From assembly GCA_965223325.1 (NCBI GenBank), contig CBDCWI010000002.1, forward strand, positions 3,488,850-3,552,849: a DNA stretch of 64,000 bases. The letters are read 5' to 3'. Shown piece by piece: positions 1,021 through 33,509 of this stretch. Numbering within the stretch: position 1 is the stretch's first letter; each line of letters starts with the position of its first letter. Made by a program: the position numbers and the translations under genes. The notes beneath the pieces were generated by a model. It worked only from the letters and a program-made list of their open reading frames with translations. It did no database searches and was not told the DNA's origin. Source of the stretch: Candidatus Multivoradales bacterium (GTDB lineage Bacteria; Acidobacteriota; Thermoanaerobaculia; Multivoradales; Multivoraceae).

Positions 1021-2430
1021 CTAGTCCTCGTCGACGTAGCCGAGGGCTTCGAGCTGCTCGCGGACCTCGTCGGGCATGGTTGCGACATCGCGGAGCTTCG
1101 AAGCCAAGCCGCGGCGCTCCTTTCGCAGTCGATCAATCGTCTCTAGGTGCTCTGCGGCACCAGCAGGTTCCCCGGAGACGAGTTCACCGTTCAAGAGGTT
1201 GTAGGTCGTCTTCGAGCCAACGCGGGTGTCCCACACCACGTGTCGCGGTTCCGGACTGAGGGAGGACACTGCCATCAGGCCGCCGTAGGAGGAGTAGGAA
1301 ACCCTTGTGCCCCCCTGGCGTGATGTCCCATCACAGATCGAACGAACCCCGCACTGTCCATCCCAGGCCTTCTCGGCAGGCACCTCCGCGATCGCCGCCA
1401 GAACGGGCGCGATGTCGACCTGCGGACACAGGCCATCTTCTACAACGCCCGTCGGCTCCCACGAACGGTGATAGAGAAGCGGAACTTTGACCAGTTCTGG
1501 CTCGAGACCTTTTCCGTGCCCCAAGCGACCGTGCTCCAGGAAAAGGTCGCCGTGGTCTCCGGTGACGACAACAACGAAGCGCTCGCTAGAGGTCTCAGCG
1601 AGCTGCACAACCCTTTCGACAAGGGAGTCCACGTAGCGTATCCCCGCATCGTAGAGGTCAACCATGTATTGGAGGTCGGTCTCTGAAACGCGCTCCGGCG
1701 GAACACCGTTGCGATAGCGATCCACCCCCTTCGCACCGACAAACATCTCGCGAAACTCGCGCGGCGGCCAGTAGGGATTGTGTACATCCATGAAGTGGAG
1801 GTACGCGAACCAGGGTCGCTGGGGCGGATCTCGCTGCGTCCAGGCCTCGAAGGCTCGCACGACCGTTTCACCCTTCGCATATGCGATCTTCTTGCGGCGC
1901 CCCTCCTCACGATGGCTGTCGAGCTCCAGCTGGGCAACCTCGAACAGCTCCGGGTAGCCCGAGCCGTCGGCCATGTGAGGGTTCGTCAGCACCGCGAACG
2001 TCTCGTAGCCTGCGCTGGCGAATGCTCCGGGGAGGGTCTCGGAGATCGGGACTAAGGACGAACGCCGCTCGGTGCCTGAGGAGGTGGCGACCACCGGGGG
2101 AGGCGACATACTGGTCAGCAGGGCAGCGGTCGAGAGGAAGGTCTGAGAGCCATGGGAGAGCCCGACGCGACAGCTGACGCTCCGTGAGGCTAGCTGGTCG
2201 AGGAAGGGGCTGACGGGACGCTGATACCCGGCAAACCCGAGGTGGTCGCCACGAAGCGCATCGATATTGATGAGGAGGATGTTCGGGGCCCTCTTCTCGC
2301 CCGTTTCTTCGCCCACTGGGTTCGAAGCAGACGAATGGCCAGCTGGGTCCGGAGAGCACGAGCCGAGCGTGACCGCCGCAGAGACGACCAGGACAACGAG
2401 AATCTCGTGGCATCCGCGGGGAATGGTCAT
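1021..2430 (-). CDS. Sulfatase-family (alkaline-phosphatase superfamily) protein with N-terminal signal peptide; possible lipoprotein. Paralog 1.
   Basis: ORF 1021..2469, probable start at internal ATG 2430 (MTIPRGCHEILVVLVVSAAVTLGSCS...). The metal-site block NILLINIDALRGDHLGFAGY and the rest of the sequence are typical of the sulfatase / phosphotransferase fold. No canonical C-x-P-x-R formylglycine motif was seen. The C-terminal tail is ...EQLEALGYVDED. Confidence 0.7.
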   Translation of the reverse strand: MTIPRGCHEILVVLVVSAAVTLGSCSPDPAGHSSASNPVGEETGEKRAPNILLINIDALRGDHLGFAGYQRPVSPFLDQLASRSVSCRVGLSHGSQTFLSTAALLTSMSPPPVVATSSGTERRSSLVPISETLPGAFASAGYETFAVLTNPHMADGSGYPELFEVAQLELDSHREEGRRKKIAYAKGETVVRAFEAWTQRDPPQRPWFAYLHFMDVHNPYWPPREFREMFVGAKGVDRYRNGVPPERVSETDLQYMVDLYDAGIRYVDSLVERVVQLAETSSERFVVVVTGDHGDLFLEHGRLGHGKGLEPELVKVPLLYHRSWEPTGVVEDGLCPQVDIAPVLAAIAEVPAEKAWDGQCGVRSICDGTSRQGGTRVSYSSYGGLMAVSSLSPEPRHVVWDTRVGSKTTYNLLNGELVSGEPAGAAEHLETIDRLRKERRGLASKLRDVATMPDEVREQLEALGYVDED

Positions 2431-2641
2431 TTGGCTGGGCTCCGGCTCGTTGGTTTCGCAAAGAGGCAAGAACCTAACAGCTCGAAGCTACACGTTCCAA
2501 GCCGAAGCGCCCGAGTCTGAGGAGCCCTGCCAATGGAGTACCGCAGCTGGCAGCACACGGGTACAAACGGAAGGGCCACCCGAGGGTGGCCCTTTCTATT
2601 GCCAGACTTCGCAGTCTCGCGTTCTTCTGGCTAGGCGCTGC

Positions 2642-3289
2642 TCAGGGGCTGAGCGTGCGAAACGACACGAAATCGTCGAAGTAGTGTGAGCCGACCGTAC
2701 CGGCATCCACACTGCTCGCCAAGAGACCGACCTTCACATTCTTGACGCCCTGGGAGGCGGTGGGGATTTCCGTCTGCTCCCGGATGGTCGCATCGTCGAC
2801 CATGATCCGCAGCAGACCATCCGTGGCACCGGCTGACGCTGCCGCGCGGAACTCGATCGTGATCTTGTGGGCCTGGTTCGGCTGCAGGTCGATGACGCCA
2901 GTCTTGCGGCGCTTGGTTCCGCCCGTCGCCTGGTACAGGGCGCGGATGTCGTAGCCGCTGCCGCCAGCCTTGCGGCGGAGCTGAGCCGAAACCACGCGAT
3001 TCCCGTTGTTGGAGTCGTTCGTGGTGCTGAAGATGATGTGACGGGCGCCGATGTCCATCGTCATGTTGTTGACGTTGAACATGAAGGAGGCGGAGTAGAC
3101 CGGCTCCTGGGCCGGGGTGTCGTCCTGGACGAAAGCATTCGTCTGGGATCCGTCTGCGGTTACCTCGAGGCCGAAGTTCCCGGCCATTGCAGCGTTGCCG
3201 TTGACGTCAAGGGACGAGTCCGCAACTGCTGCCCCGGCAAGACAGAGCAGGCCCGAAAGGGCGATGGTCATAGTTCTCTGAAGTTTCAC
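2642..3289 (-). CDS. Secreted hypothetical protein (Asn/Thr/Gly-rich; fold prediction is inference)
   Basis: ORF 2642..3340. AGGAGA lies 6 nt upstream of GTG at 3289, giving VKLQRTMTIALSGLLCLAGAAVA... as a signal peptide. The gene sits 10 bp downstream of the anti-sigma gene on the same strand. I recognised no catalytic motif. Confidence 0.55.
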   Translation of the reverse strand: MKLQRTMTIALSGLLCLAGAAVADSSLDVNGNAAMAGNFGLEVTADGSQTNAFVQDDTPAQEPVYSASFMFNVNNMTMDIGARHIIFSTTNDSNNGNRVVSAQLRRKAGGSGYDIRALYQATGGTKRRKTGVIDLQPNQAHKITIEFRAAASAGATDGLLRIMVDDATIREQTEIPTASQGVKNVKVGLLASSVDAGTVGSHYFDDFVSFRTLSP

Positions 3290-3350
3290 GTTTCTTCTCC
3301 TTTGGGCTTCAGCCCGGGCGGGCCGGGTCCTTGAATCCATTGTTGGGTTG

Positions 3351-3842
3351 TTACTGTTGGGTTGAGTCTTCCGAGATCGTCAGCCGCGCCGCCGGGCCCA
3401 GCTCGCCGTCTTCGAAGTCAAAGGTCGAGAGTGGCACCGCCTCTACTCCTGCAACTGTTGGGTTGGCATCCGGACCCCCTGCCTCTATCAGCGAATCAAA
3501 CGCACCTCCCGCGGCGGCGAGAATGCCTGAGAGTGCGAGCACACAGGCTGCTGCGGCCAGAGGAATTCTGGCCTTGGCCGTCACCTCGGCGGATGGAGCC
3601 ACGGTCGCCAGGTCCCAACTCACGGCTTCGACCAGCTCGCGGCATTCGGCACAGGAAGCAACGTGCCGCTCCACTGATTCAGAAACACATGATTTGCCAT
3701 TTCTTGCGCCGAGTGCGTGCTCGACAAGGGCGTCTGCATCAGGATGCTGGTCGAGCGCCTTGAGCACCTGAGCGAAGGCCGTCTCGGCACCTTGGGGGAC
3801 AGCGTTTGCGGCTTTGTCGAAGTCTAGGGTTGAGTGACTCAT
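3351..3842 (-). CDS. Putative anti-sigma factor (zinc-binding H-x3-C-x2-C motif, single TM helix)
   Basis: HVASCAECREL matches the ZAS-type HxxxCxxC motif. There is one hydrophobic segment IPLAAAACVLALSGILAAAGGAF. The gene lies directly downstream of an ECF sigma gene on the same strand. Confidence 0.55.
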   Translation of the reverse strand: MSHSTLDFDKAANAVPQGAETAFAQVLKALDQHPDADALVEHALGARNGKSCVSESVERHVASCAECRELVEAVSWDLATVAPSAEVTAKARIPLAAAACVLALSGILAAAGGAFDSLIEAGGPDANPTVAGVEAVPLSTFDFEDGELGPAARLTISEDSTQQ

Positions 3843-4010
3843 CTGGGGTTCCTCTGGCCTCGGGCTCCCTGCCCGGTTGCTCTATAGTCGAGCGCCCGTG
3901 GCTTTTGTTACCGACTTTCTTGAGGTGCCCACAAGACGTCCCGATTCTCGGCCTTCCCCGTGCGAGAAGCGTAGCCGCCGGTCGACCCCCCGGTCGTTGC
4001 CGCTCTCAGA

Positions 4011-4559
4011 CTACTTGGCGCCTGGACCCTCTTCAAACAATCGCGCCCGTACCCCGAGGGCAGCCTTCCGACACCGGCTGATTCGCACCCTCAATGCCCC
4101 CTCTTTGATGCCCAGGGCGGCTGCCATCTGCGTGTAGTCCTGACCCAGCGCGACCCGGCGCAGCAGCTCCAGGCACTCGGGCTTCAGCTCCTCCTCCAGC
4201 GCCCGGAGCAGGCGGTCGGTGTCGGCGGCACCGAGTTCTGCGGCTCGAGGGTCCTCGCCCGCGATCTCCGTTGCCTCATCACCAAGGGACTCGCTGGGCC
4301 TGCGACCCCGAAGCCTCACGCGGTCGATGCACTTGTAGTGCGCGATGCGGCGGGCGTAGCTCGCCAAGGTGCTTTCGCCGCGAAAGCGACCCTCTCGAAC
4401 CGCAATCAGTAGGGCCGAAAGGGAGTCCTGCTCGACGTCTTCGAGGTCGCCTGCGGCAAGGCTGTGGGCGGAGAAGGCGACGCGGATGGCTCGCCGTACC
4501 GCCGCGACAACCTCGGCGTCACCGGCGAGGAAGCGCGCGCCGTCGCTCTTCTCGGTCAT
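4011..4559 (-). CDS. ECF-type RNA polymerase sigma factor (sigma-70 regions 2 and 4)
   Basis: ORF 4011..4721. The real start is most likely ATG 4559 (MTEKSDGARFL...), which forms an ATGA overlap with the stop (4558-4556) of the upstream 1080-aa gene. Region 2 is LLIAVREGRFRGESTLASYARRIAHYKCIDRVR. The region-4 HTH is LGQDYTQMAAALGIKEGALRVRISRCRKAL. Confidence 0.8.
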   Translation of the reverse strand: MTEKSDGARFLAGDAEVVAAVRRAIRVAFSAHSLAAGDLEDVEQDSLSALLIAVREGRFRGESTLASYARRIAHYKCIDRVRLRGRRPSESLGDEATEIAGEDPRAAELGAADTDRLLRALEEELKPECLELLRRVALGQDYTQMAAALGIKEGALRVRISRCRKAALGVRARLFEEGPGAK

Positions 4560-7500
4560 GCACTTGCCCGGCCCGCAGCCCTCGACTGCTGTCCGAGGAC
4601 GCGGAGTTCGGAGGCTGCGGCTGCTTCGATGGTGAAGCGGGCAGCGATTCGCTGCCCGCGAGCTGCGAGTAGCTTGCGCAGGTCCCCGTCCTCGACCAGG
4701 CGCTGGAGGGCAGACAGGCAAGCACTCCGATCGGCTGTGTCAACGACCAGAGCGGTGTCGCCATCGATCGCGTACTCACTGGCGCCGCCAGCCTTCGGAA
4801 CGATGACGGCGCAGCCGCAGGCCATCGCCTCGAGGCCAGTGCGGCCGAAAGCCTGGTAGTGCGAAAGGTCGACGAACACGTCGGAGCGTTGCAGGAGCCC
4901 GGCCACGCCCTCCCGTGTCATAACGCCGCATCGTTCGAATGTGCCGTCGGTAGCAGCCTCATAGATCGGGTCATCGACTGGCAAGCCAAACGTCAGAACT
5001 TCTACGCCCGAAGGGTACTCGCGAGCGATCGCGCGAAGTACCTCGAGCGTGCCTTCGGCGTTGCGCCGCGGAGTGCTCGGCCGGAGCATCGCAGCAACAC
5101 GGACCGCTCCGGTGGCTGGCTCGCGGCCCCGGGGGTTGTAGACCGAGTGGTCGATGCTGGGCGTCACCTTGGCCACCGGAACGCCATGCTCCTCGAACAC
5201 CTTGGCGCGAATCCAATCGGTCTTGGCGAACAGCTGCGACCGCGGGACCCGAGAGTAGGACAGCCGCGCCTCGCGCTCGAGATTCGGATCGTGCGCCACG
5301 ATCCTCGGTTCGTAGTCCTGGACGTAGTACCCCAAACCGAGGTCAGGAAAGCTGCGCGACAGCTGCTCGAGGAGCTTGACGGAGGTAAAAATCGTGGCGA
5401 CGGCATGGGTCGCCTGGCGTGCGAGCCGGGCCAACTCATCAATCCCCTGAAAGCCGACGAAAAGGTCCGCCGGAACAGATGGGTAGTTGTCGAGGAACCA
5501 ATGGCGGTGCTGCTTGGGAACCGCGATGCGTGCCGCAGCCCCTAGCGCGCGCATGCCCAGCGCCTCCTGAACGATCGAATGCACGCCGCCGCCGCCGCGA
5601 CTGACCGGAAGAATAAAGAGAACCGACATGGCCTCGGGATCTGGGTCGACACCTGCTCCGGCGATGGGCGCTGCACGATCGATTCGGCCGAGGGCCTCCT
5701 GAATCCGAGCTCGCACCTTCGCCATCTCAGGGTTGTGGCGCATGAACTCGCTCGCCTGCTTGATCACCTCTGCGCCGTGCTTCTCGTCGAAGGCCTGACG
5801 GCTGCTGCTGGCGAGCTCGCGCCGGCGCTCGTGGCTGTAGCTCTTCGATTTGGCGTGGAAGACGAAGACGTCGTCGACCACCGCAAGTTCGAATCCTTCT
5901 GCCCGCGCGCGCAGGCAGTAGTCGTTCTCTTCGCCGTAGCCACGCGGGAAGGACTCTTCGTCGAGCAACCCGATCCGGTCGAGAAGCTCGCGCCGGATCA
6001 TGAAGCAGAAGCCGTTGAGAAACGGCATACGCGGCCGTGCACGGGCCGACGCCCGCTTCACCACGTCGTCCATTCCGTTGACACCGAGACCCTCGGGCAA
6101 CTCGTTGACGGCCCAGTCGCCCGCTTCGTCGAAGCGCTTGGGTACCGACTGGTAGCTCGCCGCGTTCGACAGTGGCCCGACGACGCCCAGCTTGCCGCTC
6201 GAAGCACCGGCTTCCACCATCCGATCGAGCCAGCCGAAAGGCACAACGACGTCGCTGTTGAGCAATACCACCCAGTCGGCCTCGCTCGCTCGCAGGCCAC
6301 GATTAGCGGCCCGGGTGTAGCCGGTGGCCCGGTCGCTTCGCAGCAGTTGGCTCTCGTGCCTGGTTGCAAAACCTCGCAGGTACTCGGCCGTTTCCATGTC
6401 CGAACCGTCATCGACGATATAGAGCGTGTACTGTCGCCGGGTGTTGCGAACCAGCGATTCGAGACAAGCTGTCACATCCTCGAGGGCGTTGTGAACACAT
6501 ACCACGACGTCGACGGTGAGTTCGTCGACCGACCTGGCGCCGGCGATGCTTTCCGGCGCAACTCTGGGCCCGGGAGCAGTGGCTGTAGATGTGGATGTGG
6601 ATGTGGATGTGGATGCGGGCGCCACGCTCAGCGGGCGAAAAAGGCCTTGGACCCGATTGCGAAGGCCCCTGAGCTTCCCGATCAGAAGCCAGCTGCGCGA
6701 CTCGTAGATCGCCCGCAGCTGCTGCTCGAGCCGGCGCTCTTTCCCCTTTCTGCGCTCATAGGCTTTTGAGTACTCGCTCTTCTCGCGACGCACCTTGCGA
6801 AGCGCGCGGGCAGCGAGCCGGTGACGGTCGATGTACTCCTCGAGTTCGCGCTTCTGTCTCTGGAGCTTCTCGTTGGCCGCGGCCAGGGCGGCTCTGAGTT
6901 CGCGCTCGTCCTCTCGGCGGCTGGCAAGCTCGTCGGCCAGCTGTCGCAAGATGCGCCGCATATCGGTATCGCGAACCGCTATCTCCTTGGAGTCGGCCGC
7001 CATCTGCTCGCGCCGCTGCCGTTCGCGCTGACGGCCGATTTCAACCCGAATCCTTTCGGACTCGATGGTTTCGATAATCGCCTCGCGCGTTTCCCTGCTA
7101 TCGAGCCGTTCGGCAAAGGCTGCCAGTGCCGGCGATGTACGAAGGCGCTCCTCGGGCAGGAGGACGGCGAGGCCATGAAGGCCACGCACGACCCGGAACC
7201 GAATGTCGCACTGTGTTCCCGCCAGGAAATCCTCGACCGCGGTGAGGACACCGTTCCTCTCGCCGCCTTCGACTGCCGCGTGGTGAAGGTGACCGTTAAG
7301 ACCGCCGGCATCAACCAGTAAGGGATGGTCCGGGTGCACACCGCGCCGGGCAAAGGGTTGCCTGTCGAGTTCTGGAATGCGGTCGGGCTCGTAGTAGAGG
7401 TCTCGCCGCCCGTAGGGCCAGCCGACGTCATGGAGCAAGACCACCGGAAACGGAACGCCTGCGCGCTGGCTGATCTCGTGCAGAAGGCGAAGCTCGTGAA

Positions 7501-7798
7501 AGACGGTGTACCAGTTGTGGTCTCCGTCGACCAGCGCCACGTCACACGCCGGGAGACCGGGAAGGACGTCGTGGCTCGTGCCTCGGTGAAAAACGAGCGC
7601 CGGGCCCCACTCCTGCTGCCACTCGTCGACGTCGTACTTCGGCAGCGGGTCGATGACGTGCAGCGTTGCGGCGTTCTGGCGGCAGTATCCGAGCAGCTCC
7701 CGCGTTTGCAGACCGCCGTCAGAACCGATTTCAACCAGAACTTTGGGCGACGTCGCCTCGAGCAGCGGCTCGGTGACGGTCTTCCAGAACCTTCTCAT
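4556..7798 (-). CDS. Multidomain glycan synthase with five segments in one chain. Residues ~15-215: class I SAM-dependent (O-)methyltransferase-like domain. Residues ~232-385: coiled coil. Residues 396-406: (ST)n linker. Residues ~428-650: GT2 glycosyltransferase. Residues ~725-1070: GT4 glycosyltransferase. Domain labels rest on motif reading only.
   Basis: Methyltransferase-like N-terminus: VLVEIGSDGG...HVIDP...DVALVDGDH...LLHDVGWPYG. Coiled coil: a heptad-like charged stretch REAIIETIESERIRVEIGRQRERQRREQ...LQRQKRELEEYIDRHRLAARALRKVRREKSEY...LEQQLRAIYESRS. Linker: STSTSTSTSTA. GT2: VVVCVHNALEDV...YIVDDGSD...LLNSDVVV...GFCFMIRRELLDRIG...GEENDYCLRA. GT4: GRTGLEAMACGCAVIV...E-rich C-terminal block. 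The gene lies in the same locus as wzm/wzt. Confidence 0.85.
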   Translation of the reverse strand: MRRFWKTVTEPLLEATSPKVLVEIGSDGGLQTRELLGYCRQNAATLHVIDPLPKYDVDEWQQEWGPALVFHRGTSHDVLPGLPACDVALVDGDHNWYTVFHELRLLHEISQRAGVPFPVVLLHDVGWPYGRRDLYYEPDRIPELDRQPFARRGVHPDHPLLVDAGGLNGHLHHAAVEGGERNGVLTAVEDFLAGTQCDIRFRVVRGLHGLAVLLPEERLRTSPALAAFAERLDSRETREAIIETIESERIRVEIGRQRERQRREQMAADSKEIAVRDTDMRRILRQLADELASRREDERELRAALAAANEKLQRQKRELEEYIDRHRLAARALRKVRREKSEYSKAYERRKGKERRLEQQLRAIYESRSWLLIGKLRGLRNRVQGLFRPLSVAPASTSTSTSTSTATAPGPRVAPESIAGARSVDELTVDVVVCVHNALEDVTACLESLVRNTRRQYTLYIVDDGSDMETAEYLRGFATRHESQLLRSDRATGYTRAANRGLRASEADWVVLLNSDVVVPFGWLDRMVEAGASSGKLGVVGPLSNAASYQSVPKRFDEAGDWAVNELPEGLGVNGMDDVVKRASARARPRMPFLNGFCFMIRRELLDRIGLLDEESFPRGYGEENDYCLRARAEGFELAVVDDVFVFHAKSKSYSHERRRELASSSRQAFDEKHGAEVIKQASEFMRHNPEMAKVRARIQEALGRIDRAAPIAGAGVDPDPEAMSVLFILPVSRGGGGVHSIVQEALGMRALGAAARIAVPKQHRHWFLDNYPSVPADLFVGFQGIDELARLARQATHAVATIFTSVKLLEQLSRSFPDLGLGYYVQDYEPRIVAHDPNLEREARLSYSRVPRSQLFAKTDWIRAKVFEEHGVPVAKVTPSIDHSVYNPRGREPATGAVRVAAMLRPSTPRRNAEGTLEVLRAIAREYPSGVEVLTFGLPVDDPIYEAATDGTFERCGVMTREGVAGLLQRSDVFVDLSHYQAFGRTGLEAMACGCAVIVPKAGGASEYAIDGDTALVVDTADRSACLSALQRLVEDGDLRKLLAARGQRIAARFTIEAAAASELRVLGQQSRAAGRASA
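6585..6614. repeat. Hexanucleotide microsatellite (GTGGAT)n, about 4-5 units. It lies inside the synthase gene and encodes the (ST)n linker.
   Basis: Plus strand reads gtagat gtggat gtggat gtggat gtggat. The minus-strand reading ACATCC repeats gives TSTSTS. The repeat is in frame, since 6 is a multiple of 3. Confidence 0.85.
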
Positions 7799-7807
7799 GC
7801 CACGGTT

Positions 7808-9265
7808 CTACTCGACATAGCCGAGCGCCTCGAGTTCGCGGCGCTCCTCTTCGGAGTAGTCGCGTCCTGTATTGTCGCGGACCGTCACCGACGGCTTCCC
7901 CATTTCTTGATGGATGAACGCGAGGTCGCGCTTGAAAGCTGTTTCGAGATCTTGATCCCCTCCGGGGAGTCCCAGTAGTTGCTGACCATCCATGTGCGCC
8001 AGTTGTGAGGCATGGGGAACCTCATACTGGAAAATCACTTGCCGATCCTCGCGCAGCAGCGTGACTCCCGAAACCCAGGTCGGGTCGTGCCGAACATGCT
8101 CGGAGATCGCGAAAGGGGGATCTCCGTTGTCAGGGGTCGGTGGAGCCAGGAAGAGAGCCGTTTGGTCGACACCGTCGAGACCATCCGGAACTTCTATGTC
8201 GGCAAGGGTTCCGAGGGTGGGGAACAGATCGATCTGCTCGATGATGGTCTCCTCGAATCGCGGCCCGGCGCCCATGTTTCGAGCCCGAAGCGCCACGGGC
8301 AAGCGCACGACCAGGGGTATGCGCACGACTTCTTGGTGAAGTGAATGGCCGTGCGCCCAGCCACCGCGGTCATAGAGCTCTTCGCCGTGATCGGCCGTCA
8401 CGATGATCAGAAAGTCGTCGAACTGCCCGGCGTCCCGCAACGTTTCGAAGAGGTGCGCAACATGGTCACCGTCGAAATAGGCGAGTTCTGTGTCATAAAG
8501 CGCCCGCGCCTCTTCAATGTCAGCGGGAGTGAGATCGCTCCGCTTCTTGTAGGTGAGCACGCTGAAGTCGACCGTGCTGTCGGTCGTCGGAAAACGGTCC
8601 CGGTAATGCGCGGCCTTGCCCTTCTTGATCACGTAAGGGTCGTGCGGCCCGATGAAGTGAACGTAAGCGAAAACCTTGTCGGCTTCGTCGAGGTCGCTGA
8701 ACCACTTTCGAAAGTGGCGTGCCGCTGGCTTGAGGCGGCCGTAGACTTCGAACCCTCGGCCGAAGCCTTGTTGTTCCGAGATGTGCGAGTTTTCGACAAA
8801 GCCAGCGGTCCTCCAGCCCGCATCTGTGAACGCCTGGCCAAGGCTCGGCACGTCGCTCGGAAAGCTCACCGTGCGCTCCTCTTTCGTGCCATCAGGAAGC
8901 ACCATGTGCCGGCCGACGGTGACGCCGTGGTGGCGCGGGTAGAGCCCCGAAAAAAGCGAAGCGACCGAGGGCTTGGTCCAGTTCGCCTGGGCAAATGCGC
9001 GCGTAAAGACGACTCCCTCGGCTGCCAACGCGTCGATTGTCGGAGTGGTTGGCCGCGGATAGCCATACACGCCGAAGTGATCTGGCCGCGCGCAGTCGAT
9101 CGACACCAGGAGGATTTTCTCGACCGGGCTCTCGATTTGGGCAGCCGGCTCTACCATCCCCCGCCCTTCTCCCGCAGGCGGCGCCGGCGAGCAGGCCAGC
9201 GGGAGCGAGGCCATCGCAACCAACAGGCCAGTGGACCGCGGGCGGCTGAAGAAGCGGGGGATCAC
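7808..9265 (-). CDS. Sulfatase-family (alkaline-phosphatase superfamily) protein with N-terminal signal peptide. Paralog 2.
   Basis: GTG start at 9265 gives MIPRFFSRPRSTGLLVAMASLPLACS. The block KILLVSIDCARPDHFGVYGYPRPTTPTIDALAAEG is sulfatase-fold like. Overall architecture and length match paralog 1. The C-terminal tail ...RELEALGYVE is nearly identical to paralog 1. Confidence 0.7.
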   Translation of the reverse strand: MIPRFFSRPRSTGLLVAMASLPLACSPAPPAGEGRGMVEPAAQIESPVEKILLVSIDCARPDHFGVYGYPRPTTPTIDALAAEGVVFTRAFAQANWTKPSVASLFSGLYPRHHGVTVGRHMVLPDGTKEERTVSFPSDVPSLGQAFTDAGWRTAGFVENSHISEQQGFGRGFEVYGRLKPAARHFRKWFSDLDEADKVFAYVHFIGPHDPYVIKKGKAAHYRDRFPTTDSTVDFSVLTYKKRSDLTPADIEEARALYDTELAYFDGDHVAHLFETLRDAGQFDDFLIIVTADHGEELYDRGGWAHGHSLHQEVVRIPLVVRLPVALRARNMGAGPRFEETIIEQIDLFPTLGTLADIEVPDGLDGVDQTALFLAPPTPDNGDPPFAISEHVRHDPTWVSGVTLLREDRQVIFQYEVPHASQLAHMDGQQLLGLPGGDQDLETAFKRDLAFIHQEMGKPSVTVRDNTGRDYSEEERRELEALGYVE

Positions 9266-9348: not shown

Positions 9349-10665
9349 CTAGCCAGCCGAAAGCAAGGAAAAATACTGCGCCGCCATGCTAGCGCAGTCC
9401 TCCAGTTCGATGCGCTGAACTCGCTCGACGCCAGTCAGCCACTTCTCCCGATTGCCAACAAGCGACTTGATCTGTGCAAGCACATCCTCAGGAGCCGTTG
9501 GGGATACCGTCCACCCTCCGCCGGTTTCGATGATGCGTTCACCGACCGCCCCACGATCACTGGCGAGCACGGGGACGCCGAGGGCTAAGACTTCTGTCAG
9601 TGTGTGGCTCCAGGTTTCGGACCAGATGGGGAGAAGAATCGCCAGGCTGGGCTGAATCCGCTCCACCAGCCCGGGAAGTTCTGTCGGCGCATAGGGCCCG
9701 TGCTCCACCATAACGCCATGGGCGGCGTAGCGGCTGAGCTCTTCACAGTGCGGGCCGAGGTGGTGAAGAACCAGCTTCGGGCCGCCGCGCAGGCTTTCCT
9801 CTAGAACCGCCGCCAACTCGTTGCTGCCCTTGTGTCGATCGAGCTTCCCTAGGGTCACGATCCGGATGGTCTCGCCCGCTACCGGTGGCGCCGCGAGATC
9901 GTGGCGCTCGAGATCGCGGCCATGCGGAATCCGGTGGATACGATCGGCGAGCGACGGCAGGCTGCGGGCAAGAATCTCTTGCGACGACCATGAGGTCACA
10001 ACAACCGCCGAAACCTGCGCGAGGGCTTCCTCTACTTCCTGGACCCACTGTGCCCGGTAGCCCGACTTGAGAACCGGCAACCCTTCGAGCCAGGGCACCG
10101 GAAGTTGGCACTGGCCTCGCCCTTCGGTGCACTGACCACCGCAATCCCTGGCCTGGTCGTCGAGCAATACGAAGCTCGGACACACCAGATAGTGGTCGTG
10201 GGCCGACACGACGACGCGCACCCCGCGCTCGGCGCACAGGTCGAGCAGGTCGAAGGTGTGCGCGAGCAGGTGCCTGAGGTGCACCGCGTTGGGCCTTGTG
10301 GCATCGAGAACCCCACGGTAGAGCTCGCGAAAATCGGCGCGGCGATGGTCCGTCGCCTGCCAGGGTCGTCGATGGTGGAAGGCTCGATCAACCGCGCGAC
10401 CCTTACTGTCGGAGCCTTCGAGGACCATGCGAAAGGGGTCGGCCCGCAACACTGAAGCGTCGAGTCTCGTTCCCAGTGCGGCCAACAGGTCGCGGCTGGT
10501 TCTGTCGACCCCACCCGGCGCATCGTGGAGAACGGTGAGCACGCGCAGCGCATCCTTCTCGGCCCCAACCATCTGTGGCCGGAAATCGCGCTCTCGGCCA
10601 AGGAGCGTCTCGCGCAGCCTGCGCGCAAAGCGGTGCCGGCGACTTCCCCAGGCGAGCAGGTCCAC
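9349..10665 (-). CDS. GT4-family (group 1) glycosyltransferase
   Basis: LRVLTVLHDAPGGVDR N-terminus. GT4-type C-terminal half (...LGPHCEELSRYAAHGVMVEHGPYAPTELPGLV..., E-x7-E-like region). The start may instead be ATG 10572 (MVGAEKDALRVLTVL). Confidence 0.75.
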   Translation of the reverse strand: MDLLAWGSRRHRFARRLRETLLGRERDFRPQMVGAEKDALRVLTVLHDAPGGVDRTSRDLLAALGTRLDASVLRADPFRMVLEGSDSKGRAVDRAFHHRRPWQATDHRRADFRELYRGVLDATRPNAVHLRHLLAHTFDLLDLCAERGVRVVVSAHDHYLVCPSFVLLDDQARDCGGQCTEGRGQCQLPVPWLEGLPVLKSGYRAQWVQEVEEALAQVSAVVVTSWSSQEILARSLPSLADRIHRIPHGRDLERHDLAAPPVAGETIRIVTLGKLDRHKGSNELAAVLEESLRGGPKLVLHHLGPHCEELSRYAAHGVMVEHGPYAPTELPGLVERIQPSLAILLPIWSETWSHTLTEVLALGVPVLASDRGAVGERIIETGGGWTVSPTAPEDVLAQIKSLVGNREKWLTGVERVQRIELEDCASMAAQYFSLLSAG

Positions 10666-10666
10666 G

Positions 10667-11512
10667 CTAGTGCCCGGAGAGTTGGGTCTGAAGGTGGGCG
10701 CGCAGCCCTGCGAGGGGGTCGGCTTCGAGGAACTGCGAGACGCTTCCCAGGTAGTCCGGGTGCCGCACTTTCAGGACCCTCAGGCCGCGCCACAACAACC
10801 AGCGCTTCTTCCAACCGATCGAGCGCGACCCATGGTGGAAGACATAGACCGAGTCAGCGAGGACATGACGCATCCCGAGCGCGGTCGCTCGCACGCAGAA
10901 ATCGTTCTCTTCGCCCGCACCCTCCGGAAACGCCTTCTCGTCAAAGCTACCCACTGCCGCGAGCGCCGCTCGGCGCACGAAGAGACAGAAGCCGTGGCCG
11001 GTGGGGACTTCGGGAGAAAGCCCTGGGCTCCACTTCGCCACCAACGCCGCCATGCGCGCGTCGTCTATCGAAATGTTCGGAGCCGGCCCGTCGTAGGGCA
11101 CCGAAAAGGGGCCGGCGTTGTTCGACAGCGGGGTGACGGTAGCGATCTTCGGATCGGTCGCAGCCACCGCAACGATTCCGGCCAGCCACCCCTTCGTTAC
11201 CCGAGTGTCGCTGTTGAGCAGCACCACATCGCGGTCGCGAGCGAGGGCGCATCCTGCATTGATGGTGGCGGTATAGCCACGCCGCTGCGGATGAATGTGG
11301 AGCGCCCAGCCTGGGTTGCGGCGCCTGGCTTCTTCGAGTTGTGGTCGCGTCGAGTCATCGCGGCTCGCATCGTCGATGAGAAGAACCTGCTCGCCCTCGG
11401 CATGGCGTTCGAGCGCAGCGATACACTCCGCCACAACCCCCGGGGCGCCGTGGACTGGTACGACCACCGTCGTGTTGGCTACAGATGGGCTGCCTGATGA
11501 ATCTGAGGGCAT
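10667..11512 (-). CDS. GT2-family glycosyltransferase
   Basis: ORF 10667..11941. I trimmed the start to ATG 11512 (MPSDSSGSPSVANTTVVVPVHGAP...) because the longer N-terminus overlaps wzm and is low-complexity. GT2 motifs: LLIDDASRD, LLNSDTRV, GHGFCLFVRRAAL, EENDFCVRA. Confidence 0.7.
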   Translation of the reverse strand: MPSDSSGSPSVANTTVVVPVHGAPGVVAECIAALERHAEGEQVLLIDDASRDDSTRPQLEEARRRNPGWALHIHPQRRGYTATINAGCALARDRDVVLLNSDTRVTKGWLAGIVAVAATDPKIATVTPLSNNAGPFSVPYDGPAPNISIDDARMAALVAKWSPGLSPEVPTGHGFCLFVRRAALAAVGSFDEKAFPEGAGEENDFCVRATALGMRHVLADSVYVFHHGSRSIGWKKRWLLWRGLRVLKVRHPDYLGSVSQFLEADPLAGLRAHLQTQLSGH

Positions 11513-11515
11513 GGA

Positions 11516-12274
11516 GTGCGCCGCCTCACCGACCTGATCCTCTACAAGACCTACGCTGACCTGAAGTCGGAGTCCGAGCGGACCTACGTCGGTTTCCTGT
11601 GGTGGGCTATCGAACCGGTCATCGCGATGGCGGTGTACTACGTGGTCTTCGAGCTGGTCTTCCAGCGCGACGTGCCCAACTATGTCACCTTCCTTTTCGT
11701 GGGTCTGGTGCCGTGGCGCTGGTTCAACACCAGCGTGATGCGCGGGGCGAATTCGATCATCGGCGCGCGGGGCCTGATCCAGCAGGTTTACGTGCCGAAG
11801 GTGGTCTTCCCGCTGACCAACTTCGTCGTCGACACCATCAAGTTCCTCGTCGTTCTCCTCTTGGTGTTGATCGTCGTTCGCGTCGGCGACTTTCCCATCG
11901 GTGCGCCGTACCTCGCGTTTCCCGTGTTGCTTCTGGTCCAAGGATTGTTTGTTGTGTCGCTAACCCTCCTCATCGCCGCAGTCGCTCCCTTTCTTCCAGA
12001 CGTTCGGATCGTGATCGAGAACGTCATGCGGCTCCTTTTCTTCCTCTCCGGCGTCTTCTACGACATCGGCGACATGTCCCCCCGCATGCAGGCCTGGTTT
12101 CGAATCAACCCGATGACGACCATCATCGAGGCTTACCGCGACATCCTCATGCACGACGAATGGCCGGCTTTCGGAGCGCTGGCTGTCATCACCGTCTTGT
12201 CGCTCATGATTCTGGCGCTTGCTGTCTGGCTGCTCCGGCGGCTCGACTTCGCCTACGCCAAGATCGCCCTCTAG
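11516..12274 (+). CDS. wzm: ABC-2 type polysaccharide export permease (Wzm-like)
   Basis: LILYKTYADLKSESERTYVGFLWWAIEPVIAMAVYYVVF matches the conserved Wzm N-terminal block. About six hydrophobic segments. GTG start. The ATP-binding partner follows immediately. Confidence 0.8.
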   Translation: MRRLTDLILYKTYADLKSESERTYVGFLWWAIEPVIAMAVYYVVFELVFQRDVPNYVTFLFVGLVPWRWFNTSVMRGANSIIGARGLIQQVYVPKVVFPLTNFVVDTIKFLVVLLLVLIVVRVGDFPIGAPYLAFPVLLLVQGLFVVSLTLLIAAVAPFLPDVRIVIENVMRLLFFLSGVFYDIGDMSPRMQAWFRINPMTTIIEAYRDILMHDEWPAFGALAVITVLSLMILALAVWLLRRLDFAYAKIAL

Positions 12275-12290: not shown

Positions 12291-13097
12291 ATGCCTGACA
12301 CCGAACTCAATGCGGACAGGGACTCCCCGGCGCCCGTGGTCGGCGAAACCCCTCACGGGCGGCCCATCCTGTCGCTCGAAGAAGTTGGCGTGTCGTATCG
12401 CCGCCGGCGGGGGCTCTTTTCGCGCCCGACCGATCTGTGGGCAGTGCGCTCAGTAACGATGGACATCTACGAAGGCGAAACCGTTGGCGTGATCGGCCGC
12501 AACGGTGCGGGCAAGAGCACTCTTCTCAAGGTGCTCGCCGGGATCATCAAGCCTGACCGCGGACACCTCGAGGTCCACACAGACCATCGGGTGTCCCTGT
12601 TGTCACTCCAGGTGGGTTTCTTGCAGTACCTGTCGGGGCGCGAGAACGTCTATCTGAGCGGTCTCCTGCTCGGTATGACCCGCCGCGAGCTCGACGCCAA
12701 GATCGACGACATCATCGCCTTCGCAGAGCTCGATCAGTTCATCGATGAACCGATTGGCACTTACTCGGCGGGCATGCGCGCGCGGCTCGGGTTCTCGACC
12801 GCCTTTCACGTCGATCCCGAGATCCTCCTGGTCGATGAGGTGCTGGGCGTCGGAGACGCCGAGTTCGTCGCCAAGTCACAAGCCGTTATGCGCGAGCGCA
12901 TCCGGTCCGATAAGACGGTGGTTCTGGTCTCGCACAGCGCCGCCTCGATCCGCGAGCTTTGCGATCGCGCCGTGTGGATCGACAAGGGGCGCTCTATGGC
13001 TTCTGGCCCAACCGAAGACGTTCTCGTCGCCTACATCGAGTCAACCAAGAAGGCCAAGACCAAGCCACCCGAAGAAGAAACCAAAGAACCGGGCTAG
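12291..13097 (+). CDS. wzt: ABC transporter ATP-binding protein (Wzt/KpsT-like; short form without C-terminal carbohydrate-binding domain)
   Basis: ATG 12291 (MPDTELNAD...) lies 17 nt after the wzm stop. Walker A GRNGAGKST, signature YSAGMRARLGF, Walker B ILLVDE. Only 268 aa, so there is no room for a C-terminal carbohydrate-binding module. Confidence 0.85.
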   Translation: MPDTELNADRDSPAPVVGETPHGRPILSLEEVGVSYRRRRGLFSRPTDLWAVRSVTMDIYEGETVGVIGRNGAGKSTLLKVLAGIIKPDRGHLEVHTDHRVSLLSLQVGFLQYLSGRENVYLSGLLLGMTRRELDAKIDDIIAFAELDQFIDEPIGTYSAGMRARLGFSTAFHVDPEILLVDEVLGVGDAEFVAKSQAVMRERIRSDKTVVLVSHSAASIRELCDRAVWIDKGRSMASGPTEDVLVAYIESTKKAKTKPPEEETKEPG

Positions 13098-13108: not shown

Positions 13109-14128
13109 ATGCCTCGAAGTGAACGAGCGCCCGCGGCCGGCTGGACGATCGTCATCCCAACCCACGACACCCGAGAGCTCACCCTCGCGTGTCTCACAAG
13201 GGTTATGGAGGAAGCGCCTCAGGCGACCGTCGTCGTTGTCGACGATGGCAGTCGCGACGGCACGAGCGAAGCGATCGCGGTGGATTTTCCTTCTGCCCTG
13301 GTGCTGCGCAACGAAGAGGCACTTGGCTACACCGGTGCGGTGAACCGGGCGCTCGAGGGCGCCGCGGGTGACTACGTTCTGCTCCTGAATTCGGACGCCG
13401 TGCTGCTTTCTGGTTCGCTCGCCGCCGCTGCCGATGCCTTCGCGCGCGATCCTCGGCTGGGGATCATCGGCGCAGCACTCGAGAATGCCGATGGCAGCCC
13501 ACAGTGGAGCGGCGGCCGGAAGCCGTCAGCGCTGTGGCTATTCGCCCTCGCCTCTGGCCTAGCGAAGCGCCTTGGGCAGAGCGGGCTCTACCGAAGGCTT
13601 CGGCCGCCCGGCGGTTGGAAGCGTGAGGCTGTTCCTGGGGCCGATAAAACGGCGCCTGTCGACTGGGTCTCCGGGGCGGCGATGGCGATTCGCCAGCCGG
13701 TGCTCACGGCGCTTGGACCCCTTCCCGATGTCTACCGGTTCTTCTGCCAGGACCTCGAATACTGCCTTCGGGCCGGGGTCTCTGGTTGGCGTGTGGCCCT
13801 GGTGCCAGCGTTTCGCGTACGCCACCACCTCGGCGCCAGCTCGGTCGCCGAGCTCGCCTCGGATGGCGGTCTGACTGGCGAGCCTGATGAGGATGCTCTG
13901 CGCTTTTCGATCCTCCTCGAAGACCTGGTTCGCTTCTCTGGTCGTGACCTCGGAGGCCCCGGCCCGCAGCAGGCGCAGCGCGCGCTGGCCGCCGGCCTGC
14001 GTTTACGCGGGCTGCTCGAGGTGTTCTTGGGGCCGACTCCGGGGTTCGAGAACGCGGAACTGGATGTCATCGACCTGGCGTGGCGCCTCCGAACCATTGC
14101 CGAGAACGGCGCCGCGACAGGGAGCTGA
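13109..14128 (+). CDS. GT2-family glycosyltransferase
   Basis: ATG 13109 (MPRSERAPAAGWTIVIPTHD...). Motifs VVVVDDGSRDGT, LLLNSDAVL and a DxD-like region. Confidence 0.75.
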   Translation: MPRSERAPAAGWTIVIPTHDTRELTLACLTRVMEEAPQATVVVVDDGSRDGTSEAIAVDFPSALVLRNEEALGYTGAVNRALEGAAGDYVLLLNSDAVLLSGSLAAAADAFARDPRLGIIGAALENADGSPQWSGGRKPSALWLFALASGLAKRLGQSGLYRRLRPPGGWKREAVPGADKTAPVDWVSGAAMAIRQPVLTALGPLPDVYRFFCQDLEYCLRAGVSGWRVALVPAFRVRHHLGASSVAELASDGGLTGEPDEDALRFSILLEDLVRFSGRDLGGPGPQQAQRALAAGLRLRGLLEVFLGPTPGFENAELDVIDLAWRLRTIAENGAATGS

Positions 14129-33503: not shown

Positions 33504-33509
33504 GGCCCC

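What the first reader, a model, noticed from the sequence alone, without database searches (positions are those of the whole stretch)
12291..13097. Wzt lacks a C-terminal carbohydrate-binding module although the synthase carries a putative capping methyltransferase
In the characterised systems where a terminal cap (methyl/phosphate in O8/O9a, beta-Kdo in O12) stops polymerisation, Wzt has a C-terminal CBM that recognises the cap before export. Here Wzt is only ~268 aa, a nucleotide-binding domain only. So either the methyltransferase domain does not make an export signal, or recognition occurs elsewhere. The candidates would be the orphan secreted beta-rich proteins in the locus, or the synthase itself could hand the chain over. 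Alternatively this is a KpsMT-like (capsule-type) coupling.
Basis: inference. Interest (0 to 1): 0.5.

Follow-up and report, generated by a model that had tools for sequence, protein, structure and literature searches.

The report
Glycan exporter lacking a cap-reading domain
A sugar-polymer export pump here really does lack the add-on domain that normally checks for a finished, methyl-capped chain, although its partner enzyme looks like a capping "ruler" enzyme; the same pairing recurs in many bacterial phyla, so it is a common but unstudied variant of a known pathway.

Summary
The gene at 12291-13097 (+) encodes a 268-aa Wzt with only a nucleotide-binding domain. The next gene starts 11 nt after its stop. 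A 95%-identical relative is 266 aa, and all 120 nearest homologues are 213-297 aa. No Wzt_C-like sequence occurs in any frame of the 64 kb.

The 1080-aa protein at 4556-7798 (-) carries, in order:
- an N-terminal O-methyltransferase-fold domain with invariant SAM/metal-type motifs;
- a 131-residue single helix;
- a disordered Ser/Thr/Pro linker;
- a GT2 module and a GT4 module.

This is the polymerase, coiled-coil and terminator layout of K. pneumoniae O7 ORF6, WbbB and WsaE. It contains no beta-sandwich domain.

In other loci carrying this methyltransferase domain, the neighbouring Wzt has no CBM in about 16 cases and a Wzt_C CBM in only 2. A sister polymerase clade with a WbdD-like methyltransferase always has a CBM-bearing Wzt.

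Most likely the methyl cap ends or marks the chain but does not license export. Export then resembles the CBM-less K. pneumoniae O1/O2a and V. cholerae O1 systems. KpsMT-type coupling, a truncated gene and the secreted beta-rich proteins are all disfavoured.

I rate this a new variant of a known kind, of moderate interest.

The parts
12291..13097 (+). wzt: 268-aa ABC transporter ATPase with a nucleotide-binding domain only and no carbohydrate-binding module
   Evidence: Pfam finds ABC_tran only. NCBIfam's best matches are Wzt/RfbE and TagH. The PDB sequence match to the A. aeolicus Wzt NBD ends at aa ~250. All ATPase motifs are present. The same product is called in the source assembly.
11516..12274 (+). 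wzm: 252-aa ABC-2 type permease
   Evidence: Pfam ABC2_membrane E 1.2e-14. NCBIfam galactan Wzm/RfbD E 2.8e-14, ahead of KpsM at E 5.6e-8.
4556..7798 (-). 1080-aa synthase with methyltransferase, long helix, flexible linker, GT2 and GT4 modules
   Evidence: Pfam. AlphaFold2 model with mean pLDDT 81. More than 900 homologues share the architecture.
7106..7798 (-). N-terminal methyltransferase domain (aa 1-231), the putative chain-capping O-methyltransferase
   Evidence: Methyltransf_24 E 2e-10. Foldseek hits are class I O-methyltransferases: PaMTH1 (E 4e-6), TrmR and the M. hassiacum sugar O-methyltransferase MeT1. Invariant residues are E23, G29, D50, D91-G-D-H-N95 and W127-PYGRRD133. In the 150 best of 1158 cluster representatives listed, the domain begins within the first few residues in all but a handful.
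6704..7096 (-). single long alpha-helix (aa 235-365), the putative coiled-coil spacer or ruler
   Evidence: The AlphaFold2 model shows one helix, H235-365. The region between the methyltransferase and GT2 varies from 144 to 270 aa in 30 homologues while both flanks keep constant length; it is rich in E/R/K/Q/L/A.
6539..6703 (-). disordered Ser/Thr/Pro-rich linker (aa 366-420, includes STSTSTSTSTAT)
   Evidence: pLDDT below 50 for residues 365-420; sequence.
5699..6526 (-). GT2 (GT-A fold) glycosyltransferase module (aa 425-700)
   Evidence: Pfam Glycos_transf_2 E 6e-21; secondary structure of the model.
4574..5641 (-). GT4 (GT-B fold) glycosyltransferase module (aa 720-1075)
   Evidence: Pfam Glycos_transf_1 E 3e-15 and a weak WsaF_C hit. 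Foldseek matches MshA, PimA and BshA with target-normalised TM-score ~0.75.
9349..10665 (-). GT4 glycosyltransferase (438 aa)
   Evidence: Pfam Glyco_transf_4 and Glycos_transf_1; conserved in L001.
10667..11512 (-). GT2 glycosyltransferase (281 aa), divergent from wzm with a 3-nt gap
   Evidence: Pfam Glycos_transf_2 E 4e-16. The start at 11512 was set by comparison with L001.
13109..14128 (+). GT2 glycosyltransferase (339 aa) immediately after wzt
   Evidence: Pfam Glycos_transf_2 E 4e-19; conserved in L001.
7808..9265 (-). sulfatase-family lipoprotein (485 aa); membership of the pathway is uncertain
   Evidence: Pfam Sulfatase E 8e-44. It has a lipoprotein-type signal, LPLAC. It is absent from this position in L001.
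4011..4559 (-). ECF-type sigma factor (182 aa) overlapping the synthase stop by 4 nt
   Evidence: Weak Pfam Sigma70_r2 and Sigma70_r4_2 hits; conserved position in L001.
3351..3842 (-). putative anti-sigma factor (163 aa) with a CxxC motif and one transmembrane segment
   Evidence: Read from the sequence; no Pfam hit.
   Evidence: Signal-peptide-like N-terminus read from the sequence. No Pfam hit. No match to the local Wzt_C HMM.

Best explanation
What the locus is. It is an ABC-transporter-dependent (Wzm/Wzt) glycan assembly system.

The synthase. One large cytoplasmic protein joins the polymerising glycosyltransferases (GT2 + GT4) to an O-methyltransferase. A ~130-residue helix plus a flexible linker holds the methyltransferase away from the glycosyltransferases. 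This matches the layout of the polymerase, coiled-coil ruler and terminator proteins WbbB, K. pneumoniae O7 ORF6 and WsaE.

Proposed role of the methyltransferase (inferred). It methylates the non-reducing terminal sugar once the chain is long enough to reach it. That blocks further extension and so sets chain length or end chemistry.

The transporter. Wzt belongs to an old, uniformly CBM-less clade of nucleotide-binding subunits. Export is therefore not licensed by reading the cap. The transporter presumably engages the lipid-linked reducing end, as all Wzm/Wzt pumps do, and takes whatever the synthase releases. This is how the CBM-less K. pneumoniae O1/O2a and V. cholerae O1 systems behave.

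Shown versus inferred. Shown here: the domain anatomy, the absence of a CBM, and the recurrence of this pairing across phyla. Inferred: terminal methylation, ruler function, and cap-independent export.
For: Absence of a CBM. Wzt is NBD-only and is not truncated.

Synthase anatomy. AlphaFold2 shows a methyltransferase domain, a 131-aa helix, a disordered linker, then GT-A and GT-B modules, with no beta-sandwich. The N-domain has an O-methyltransferase fold and invariant catalytic-type motifs. The spacer length varies from 144 to 270 aa between flanks of constant length. In the listed best 150 of 1158 cluster representatives, the methyltransferase domain starts within the first few residues in nearly all.

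Link to capping. The same methyltransferase family (46% identity) is encoded next to Wzt proteins with a bona fide Wzt_C domain in L100 and L109.

The CBM-less pairing is the norm.
- Single-NBD, CBM-less Wzt next to this methyltransferase family: window, L001, L003 (Paenibacillus), L004, L011 (Planctomycetota), L013 (Thermincola), L055, L089/L090, L102 and L165.
- Tandem-NBD Wzt without a CBM: L116, L122, L125 and L128, and probably L092 and L113.
- Sources.

No hidden reader among neighbours. Only wzm, wzt and the synthase/glycosyltransferase genes are conserved across these loci.

Age of the CBM-less state. The window Wzt sits inside an all-CBM-less branch of a rough neighbour-joining tree.

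Literature.
- CBM-less transporters export glycans whether or not they carry a terminal group (PMC10629545; PMC11231755).
- E. coli O101 isolates with a disrupted coiled-coil methyltransferase still make O antigen (PMC13168486).
Against: - No glycan structure exists, so terminal methylation is unproven. Internal methylation would fit an O-methyltransferase fold equally well.
- The helix was modelled in a monomer with pLDDT 65-80. Its oligomeric coiled-coil state and any ruler function were not tested.
- The characterised ruler-terminator systems all use a CBM (PMC11231755). The CBD is essential for export in CBD-type transporters (PMC9445017). A ruler without a reader would therefore allow premature export unless something else prevents it.
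- Only 64 kb of a 4.55-Mb genome was searched, so a stand-alone CBM elsewhere is not excluded. Cuthbertson's in-trans complementation shows a separate CBM could work (cited in PMC9445017).
- In the window the synthase and wzm-wzt lie on opposite strands, separated by three genes.
Confidence: 0.55

Rival explanations
1. The methyltransferase domain is not a chain terminator. It decorates internal residues, the primer or the adaptor, or is catalytically inert. The long helix merely oligomerises or scaffolds the synthase. No export signal exists, and the missing CBM needs no explanation.
For: The fold matches only generic class I O-methyltransferases, with TM-score ~0.5. PDB sequence-profile hits are not significant (E > 0.5). 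Many homologues of the domain are stand-alone proteins of 226-420 aa, including archaeal ones. Several synthase homologues have no ABC transporter within 10 kb.
Against: The domain starts within the first few residues in nearly all listed family members. In the synthases it is separated from the glycosyltransferases by a poorly conserved helical spacer of variable length. That arrangement makes sense for action at a distance and is not needed for decorating each repeat. The same domain family is paired with Wzt_C-bearing transporters in L100 and L109, and a CBM predicts a terminal cap. The catalytic-type residues are invariant.
Confidence: 0.2
2. The cap is an export signal, but it is read by something other than a C-terminal Wzt module. 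Candidates are a stand-alone CBM encoded elsewhere in the genome, a surface of the NBD or Wzm itself, or direct hand-over from the synthase docked on the transporter.
For: A CBD and a CBD-less transporter can work in trans (PMC9445017). The A. aeolicus NBD hinge helix contributes to O-antigen binding (same paper). Only 64 kb of the genome could be searched. The wzm-wzt-synthase genes are directly adjacent in many loci, which would suit a physical complex.
Against: No Wzt_C-like sequence occurs in any frame of the window or of L001. No additional gene family is conserved across the CBM-less loci. The synthase has no beta-sandwich domain. The whole Wzt clade is CBM-less, so a separate reader would have to have co-evolved in many phyla.
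Confidence: 0.15
3. This is a KpsMT-type capsule export system. Substrate recognition uses a lipid-linked Kdo linker and a trans-envelope KpsE/KpsD complex, not a cap.
For: Wzm has a weak NCBIfam match to KpsM (E 5.6e-8). KpsT proteins also lack a CBM (general knowledge).
Against: No KpsE, KpsD, KpsC or KpsS homologue was found, nor any Kdo-related gene, among about 50 window genes. Wzt scores best against Wzt/RfbE and TagH, and Wzm against galactan Wzm. The best solved-structure matches are Wzt, TagH/TarH and RfbE.
Confidence: 0.04
4. The short Wzt is an artefact, caused by a frameshift or premature stop near 13097 that cut off a CBM.
For: None found.
Against: Only 11 nt separate the stop from the next gene. 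A relative has the same length and the same gene order. All 120 nearest homologues are short. No CBM-like sequence occurs in any frame.
Confidence: 0.01

Closest known systems
K. pneumoniae O7 ORF6 with its Wzm/Wzt (Kelly et al. 2024, PMC11231755)
   Same: A single large protein with an N-terminal methyltransferase, a central coiled coil and two C-terminal glycosyltransferase modules, encoded next to wzm-wzt. It adds a terminal methyl-containing cap.
   Different: O7 ORF6 has an extra 223-aa kinase domain and an Ig-like CBM between the methyltransferase and the coiled coil, and it makes a methyl-phosphate cap. The paper states that every terminated OPS example has a CBM on Wzt; the O7 Wzt itself was not examined here. 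In this window there is no room for a kinase (the methyltransferase ends at ~231 and the helix starts at 235), no beta-sandwich, and no CBM on Wzt.
E. coli O8/O9a WbdD-WbdA-Wzt and K. pneumoniae O12 WbbB-Wzt (ruler-terminator prototypes)
   Same: A terminator held at the end of a coiled coil away from the polymerase, with assembly dependent on an ABC transporter.
   Different: In those systems the Wzt CBM binds the cap and export strictly needs it. Here Wzt is NBD-only. The methyltransferase is of the Methyltransf_24 type, not the WbdD Methyltransf_11/23 type.
K. pneumoniae O1/O2a and V. cholerae O1 (CBM-less Wzt systems; PMC10629545)
   Same: The Wzt has only an NBD. In O1 and Ogawa a terminal group (pyruvate or 2-O-methyl) is present but is not required for export.
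   Different: From my own knowledge, not checked in the papers read here, their modifying enzymes (WbbZ, WbeT) are separate proteins and have not been described as coiled-coil rulers. Per, chain length in O2a comes from coupling extension to export and gives a broad length distribution, and loss of WbbZ does not substantially increase chain length. Here the methyltransferase is tethered to the polymerase by a long helix.
G. stearothermophilus WsaE/WsaF S-layer glycan system (PMC2943079)
   Same: WsaE has an N-terminal methyltransferase (2-O-methyl cap on terminal rhamnose) followed by two glycosyltransferase domains, encoded directly after wzm-wzt. The window's GT4 module gives a weak WsaF_C hit. 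Firmicute loci L003 and L013 have the same wzm-wzt-synthase order.
   Different: Homology of the WsaE methyltransferase domain to this family could not be established; WsaE was not among the named hits. I also could not determine whether its Wzt carries a CBM.
E. coli O101/Onovel32 methyltransferase with coiled coil (PMC13168486)
   Same: A methyltransferase plus coiled-coil protein in an ABC-transporter locus. About 30% of isolates have it disrupted yet still display O antigen, so the cap is not obligatory for export.
   Different: That methyltransferase is a separate protein. Losing it changes polymer composition. I could not check the domain content of its Wzt.

Membership tests
Wzm/Wzt-type (ABC-2, type V) glycan exporter | ABC-2 permease gene adjacent to an ATPase gene with Walker A, signature (YSxGM type), Walker B and H-loop | tested here: met
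   Pfam ABC2_membrane and ABC_tran; motifs located in the sequence; genes 16 nt apart.
Wzm/Wzt-type (ABC-2, type V) glycan exporter | NBD closest to Wzt/TagH/RfbE rather than to other ABC families | tested here: met
   NCBIfam's top three hits are Wzt/RfbE and TagH, all below the equivalog cut-offs. PDB's best matches are A. aeolicus Wzt at E 9e-56, then TagH, TarH and RfbE.
Wzm/Wzt-type (ABC-2, type V) glycan exporter | Transports a polyprenol-linked glycan made by neighbouring glycosyltransferases | not testable with these tools
   Only gene neighbourhood is available. The wzm-wzt-synthase synteny is conserved across phyla.
CBM-bearing Wzt (cap-reading transporters, Pfam Wzt_C PF14524) | C-terminal ~140-aa jelly-roll domain after the NBD | tested here: not met
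   No Pfam hit. Only 18 aa follow the NBD. The local HMM was negative in all frames. Positive controls were detected.
Polymerase / coiled-coil ruler / terminator systems (WbdD, WbbB, Kp O7 ORF6 type) | Terminator catalytic domain (methyltransferase, kinase or Kdo transferase) at the membrane-distal end | tested here: met
   N-terminal Methyltransf_24 with an O-methyltransferase fold. The domain starts within the first few residues in nearly all listed family members. Terminator activity itself was not tested.
Polymerase / coiled-coil ruler / terminator systems (WbdD, WbbB, Kp O7 ORF6 type) | Extended coiled coil separating the terminator from the polymerase or membrane, with its length setting chain length | tested here: inconclusive
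   A 131-residue single helix in a monomer model and a spacer of variable length. Oligomeric state and ruler function were not tested.
Polymerase / coiled-coil ruler / terminator systems (WbdD, WbbB, Kp O7 ORF6 type) | Cognate ABC transporter carries a CBM that binds the cap and gates export | tested here: not met
   The system therefore has the synthase half of this kind but not the transporter half.
Polymerase / coiled-coil ruler / terminator systems (WbdD, WbbB, Kp O7 ORF6 type) | Non-reducing terminal cap present on the mature glycan | not testable with these tools
   No glycan structure is available for this organism.
KpsMT capsule export | Accompanying KpsE (PCP-3), KpsD (OPX) and KpsC/KpsS Kdo-linker enzymes | tested here: not met
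   None found among about 50 genes of the window. The rest of the genome was not searched.

The most novel reading that the evidence does not exclude
Ruler-type terminator synthases paired with CBM-less Wzt may form a distinct, widespread third mode of ABC-transporter-dependent glycan assembly. Chain length would be fixed by a tethered methyltransferase. Export of only finished chains would be ensured by something other than a cap-binding module, such as direct docking or hand-over between the synthase and Wzm/Wzt, or recognition by the NBD itself.
Probability: 0.2. Interest if true: 0.6.

Novelty: new variant of a known kind. Interest (0 to 1): 0.4.

Why it matters
Current models of ABC-transporter-dependent O-antigen and cell-wall glycan assembly recognise two modes. 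In one, a ruler and terminator cap the chain and a CBM reads the cap. In the other there is no cap, and extension is coupled to export.

This locus and about 16 related loci from Firmicutes, Planctomycetota, Acidobacteria-like and other lineages combine the synthase of the first mode with the transporter of the second. If the methyl cap is real, these systems separate chain termination from export licensing.

They would be a natural test of whether the CBM checkpoint is needed for length fidelity. The N-terminal methyltransferase family is also large (at least 1,100 clusters at 50% identity), uncharacterised, and a candidate marker for capped glycans in uncultured bacteria and archaea.

The practical value is limited until a cultivable or clonable example is analysed biochemically.

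Tried and rejected
- Truncation or frameshift of wzt: rejected.
- A CBM fused to another locus protein: rejected for the synthase by the AlphaFold2 model, and for all window ORFs by Pfam and a local Wzt_C HMM.
- Secreted beta-rich proteins as cap readers: rejected on topology. The candidate has a signal peptide and is encoded beside an ECF sigma and anti-sigma pair.
- KpsMT-type system: rejected (and the window-wide Pfam scans).
- Placing G. stearothermophilus WsaE in this methyltransferase family: a search with a Firmicute N-domain gave no named WsaE among the best 120 hits. This is inconclusive.
- Papers I could not obtain: the Mann-Kimber-Whitfield 2019 census, the Whitfield 2020 review, Steiner 2008 and Messner 2008. 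I therefore cannot say whether that census already lists terminators with CBM-less transporters.
- Locating the source contig by exact protein look-up: failed. The rest of the genome could not be scanned, and the organism is known only as a high-GC bacterium whose nearest Wzt hits come from Acidobacteria-type MAGs.
- Sequence and profile searches of the methyltransferase domain against PDB: nothing significant. Only the fold search was informative.
- Foldseek of the full-length model: returned only generic GT4 enzymes.
- Wzt domain content of E. coli O101/O52: could not be checked, because the E. coli collection accepts only DNA queries.
Full report
**Context.** The window is high-GC (about 64%). 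It contains the replication-origin gene set: dnaA 16643-18085, then dnaN, recF, gyrB and gyrA (for the syntenic relative). Just upstream lies a compact glycan locus:
- sulfatase-family lipoprotein, 1021-2469 (-)
- secreted protein, 2642-3340 (-)
- putative anti-sigma factor, 3351-3842 (-)
- ECF sigma factor, 4011-4559 (-)
- 1080-aa multidomain synthase, 4556-7798 (-)
- second sulfatase-family lipoprotein, 7808-9265 (-)
- GT4, 9349-10665 (-)
- GT2, 10667-11512 (-)
- wzm, 11516-12274 (+)
- wzt, 12291-13097 (+)
- GT2, 13109-14128 (+)

The rest of the window is housekeeping or unrelated metabolism.

The wzt ORF runs from ATG 12291 to TAG 13097 and gives 268 aa.
- Pfam finds only ABC_tran.
- NCBIfam ranks galactan Wzt/RfbE and TagH first.
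- The best solved-structure matches are the A. aeolicus Wzt NBD (E 9e-56), TagH/TarH and mycobacterial RfbE. The alignment ends near residue 250, leaving an 18-aa charged tail.
- All ATPase motifs are present.

It is not a truncation.
- The next gene begins 11 nt after the stop.
- The nearest relative is 95% identical, has the same start, is 266 aa long, and shares the gene order.
- The same 268-aa product is on record from the 4.55-Mb source contig.
- All 120 best homologues are 213-297 aa with ABC_tran only.

Searched with filters off against every six-frame ORF of the window and of L001, it found nothing (best E 0.29, inside the mreB gene). The Pfam Wzt_C model did detect its domain in the positive controls L075, L079, L004 and L100 (E 1e-20 to 1e-30).

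**The synthase.** Pfam shows Methyltransf_24 (aa 22-124, E 2e-10), GT2 (aa 431-656) and GT4 (aa ~900-1060, with a weak WsaF_C hit). An AlphaFold2 model built on 30 homologues (mean pLDDT 81) gives:
- a Rossmann-type domain, aa 1-231
- one continuous helix, aa 235-365
- a disordered Ser/Thr/Pro linker, aa 366-420
- a GT-A module, aa 425-700
- a GT-B module, aa 720-1075

It contains no beta-sandwich domain, so no CBM is hidden in the synthase. This differs from K. pneumoniae O7 ORF6, which has an Ig-like CBM and a kinase between the methyltransferase and the coiled coil (PMC11231755).

The N-domain modelled alone (pLDDT 84) matches class I O-methyltransferases by Foldseek. The hits include PaMTH1 (E 4e-6), TrmR and the M. 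hassiacum sugar O-methyltransferase MeT1, with TM-score about 0.5. Sequence-only searches of PDB were not significant.

Residues E23, G29, D50, D91-G-D-H-N95 and W127-PYGRRD133 are invariant across 30 homologues at 38-79% identity to the window protein. That argues for an active enzyme.

Between the methyltransferase and GT2, the spacer varies from 144 to 270 aa and is poorly conserved. The N-terminal part (240-259 aa) and the C-terminal part (635-701 aa) keep their lengths.

An exhaustive profile search finds 1158 cluster representatives at E <= 1e-30. In the listed best 150 the domain begins within the first few residues in all but a handful. The proteins range from 259 to 2188 aa and include both stand-alone methyltransferase-helix proteins and glycosyltransferase fusions. 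None of the named relatives has a functional annotation beyond 'class I SAM-dependent methyltransferase'.

**Comparative test.** I fetched 80 genomic loci with the whole synthase as query. I fetched 80 metagenomic loci with the N-domain alone. I then typed the Wzt-like genes near them (Pfam checks). Among loci that carry this methyltransferase domain and an assessable Wzt:
- **Single-NBD, CBM-less Wzt:** the window, L001, L003 (Paenibacillus provencensis), L004 (the Wzt adjacent to the synthase), L011 (Planctomycetota), L013 (Thermincola), L055 (Hyphomonadaceae), L089/L090, L102 and L165.
- **Fused tandem-NBD Wzt without a CBM:** L116, L122, L125 and L128. The partial genes in L092 and L113 cluster with the second NBD of these.
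- **Wzt_C-bearing Wzt:** only L100 and L109. In L100 a stand-alone 413-aa methyltransferase-coiled-coil protein sits beside a 443-aa Wzt (Wzt_C E 1.5e-30).

L004 additionally has a second, separate wzm-wzt pair with a CBM about 6.5 kb away.

Many other homologues, for example those from Solirubrobacterales and a cyanobacterium, have no ABC transporter within 10 kb.

By contrast, the Chloroflexia loci L075, L076, L078 and L079 encode a homologous GT2-GT4 polymerase. In L075, the locus I checked with Pfam, its N-terminus is a WbdD-like Methyltransf_25/23/11 domain followed by a helical region, and L076 is nearly identical. All four loci have Wzt_C-bearing Wzt.

A further locus found through the Wzt search, L002, has a Methyltransf_11, coiled-coil and GT4-like protein of 829 aa next to a 246-aa Wzt.

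Clustering all ORFs from these loci shows that only wzm, wzt and the synthase/glycosyltransferase families are shared. No conserved extra gene could serve as a cap reader.

In a rough neighbour-joining tree of NBDs, the window Wzt lies in a branch made up only of CBM-less proteins. CBM-bearing Wzt proteins appear in three separate places.

**Interpretation.** Three features match the published polymerase, ruler and terminator design:
- the methyltransferase position at the N-terminus;
- its variable helical tether to the polymerase;
- its occasional pairing with bona fide cap-reading transporters.

I therefore accept 'putative capping methyltransferase' as the best reading of the domain, while noting that it is an inference.

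The transporter, however, belongs to a lineage that never had a CBM, and this pairing is the commonest state for the methyltransferase family. The literature shows that a CBM is not mechanistically needed to move a capped chain:
- the CBM-less O2a transporter can export the O3a/O9a glycan;
- K. pneumoniae O1 and V. cholerae O1 carry terminal groups that are dispensable for export;
- E. coli O101 isolates with a disrupted coiled-coil methyltransferase still display O antigen.

The most economical model is therefore that methylation ends or marks the chain and that export is not cap-licensed. What then prevents premature export of short, uncapped chains is unknown. Possibilities are processive retention by the synthase, stoichiometric coupling as in O2a, or an unrecognised hand-over.

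**Rivals.**
- The methyltransferase may decorate internal residues, and the helix may only oligomerise the enzyme (about 0.2).
- A reader may exist elsewhere in the genome, or within the NBD, Wzm or synthase (about 0.15). I could not scan the other 4.5 Mb.
- KpsMT-like coupling is disfavoured, because no kpsE/D/C/S-type genes were found and the family scores point to Wzm/Wzt and TagGH.
- The secreted beta-rich protein has a signal peptide and is encoded beside an ECF sigma and anti-sigma pair. It is on the wrong side of the membrane.
- A sequencing artefact is excluded.

**Novelty and limits.** Every part belongs to a known family. What is not among the characterised prototypes is the combination of a tethered methyltransferase terminator-type synthase with an NBD-only Wzt. 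A 2024 paper states that all terminated O-polysaccharide examples have a CBM on Wzt. I could not read the 2019 bioinformatic census that might already list such divergent systems.

I rate this a new variant of a known kind, with interest 0.4. The sample sizes are small (about 18 assessable loci). The gene calls in fetched loci are my own ORF calls. The tree is a quick distance tree. No experiment links the methyltransferase to a terminal methyl group.

Noticed in passing
L116:7098-8678, L122:4089-5657, L125:15288-16916, L128:2872-4407: These Wzt-like proteins of 512-543 aa consist of two fused nucleotide-binding domains and have no CBM. Each is encoded next to wzm and a synthase with the same N-terminal methyltransferase domain. 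Partial genes in L092 and L113 cluster with the second NBD. A fused tandem-NBD Wzt is not one of the described prototypes.
   Followed up: partly
L075:7953-12268, L076:2100-6415, L078, L079: Chloroflexia loci encode a homologous GT2-GT4 polymerase. In L075 its N-terminus is a WbdD-like Methyltransf_25/23/11 domain plus a helical region, and the adjacent Wzt has a clear Wzt_C domain. Within one polymerase family, the methyltransferase type and the transporter type appear to co-vary.
   Followed up: partly
L100:7851-11239 and L109:2-5845: These are the only two loci found where the same Methyltransf_24-type N-domain sits beside a CBM-bearing Wzt. Both, together with the tandem-NBD loci L116, L122 and L125, also carry a conserved ~203-aa protein with weak Methyltransf_11 similarity between wzt and the methyltransferase gene. 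It is absent from the window.
   Followed up: partly
window 1021-2469 (-) and 7808-9265 (-): Two sulfatase-family proteins with lipoprotein-type signal peptides lie in the locus. The second is inserted between the synthase and the GT4 gene, a position where the close relative L001 has nothing. Related loci (L002, L084, L085) carry sulfotransferases. This hints that glycans of this group may be sulfated or remodelled outside the cytoplasm.
   Followed up: no
window 2642-4559 (-): An ECF sigma factor overlaps the synthase stop by 4 nt. It is followed by a putative anti-sigma factor (CxxC motif plus one transmembrane segment) and a secreted beta-rich protein. The arrangement is conserved in L001 and suggests envelope-stress-type regulation linked to the glycan locus.
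   Followed up: no
window 6599-6646 (-), synthase aa ~385-400: A perfect Ser-Thr repeat (STSTSTSTSTAT) lies in the disordered linker between the long helix and the GT2 module. It is not conserved in homologues.
   Followed up: no
window 31544-36619 (+): A gene run encodes a type III polyketide synthase (chalcone/stilbene synthase-like), an ICMT-family membrane methyltransferase, an acyl carrier protein, an AMP-binding enzyme and an FAD monooxygenase. It resembles the srs/ars-type phenolic-lipid (alkylresorcinol) operons I recall from the literature.
   Followed up: no
window 11512-11516: The divergently transcribed GT2 (-) and wzm (+) genes have start codons only 3 nt apart; L001 shows the same 3-nt spacing. 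Both promoters must therefore lie inside the neighbouring coding sequence.
   Followed up: no
L002:4712-10741: A locus found through the Wzt search has an 829-aa protein with Methyltransf_11, a coiled coil and a GT4-like domain, plus a sulfotransferase, next to a 246-aa CBM-less Wzt. This is a second, unrelated methyltransferase type showing the same pairing of terminator-like protein with an NBD-only transporter.
   Followed up: partly
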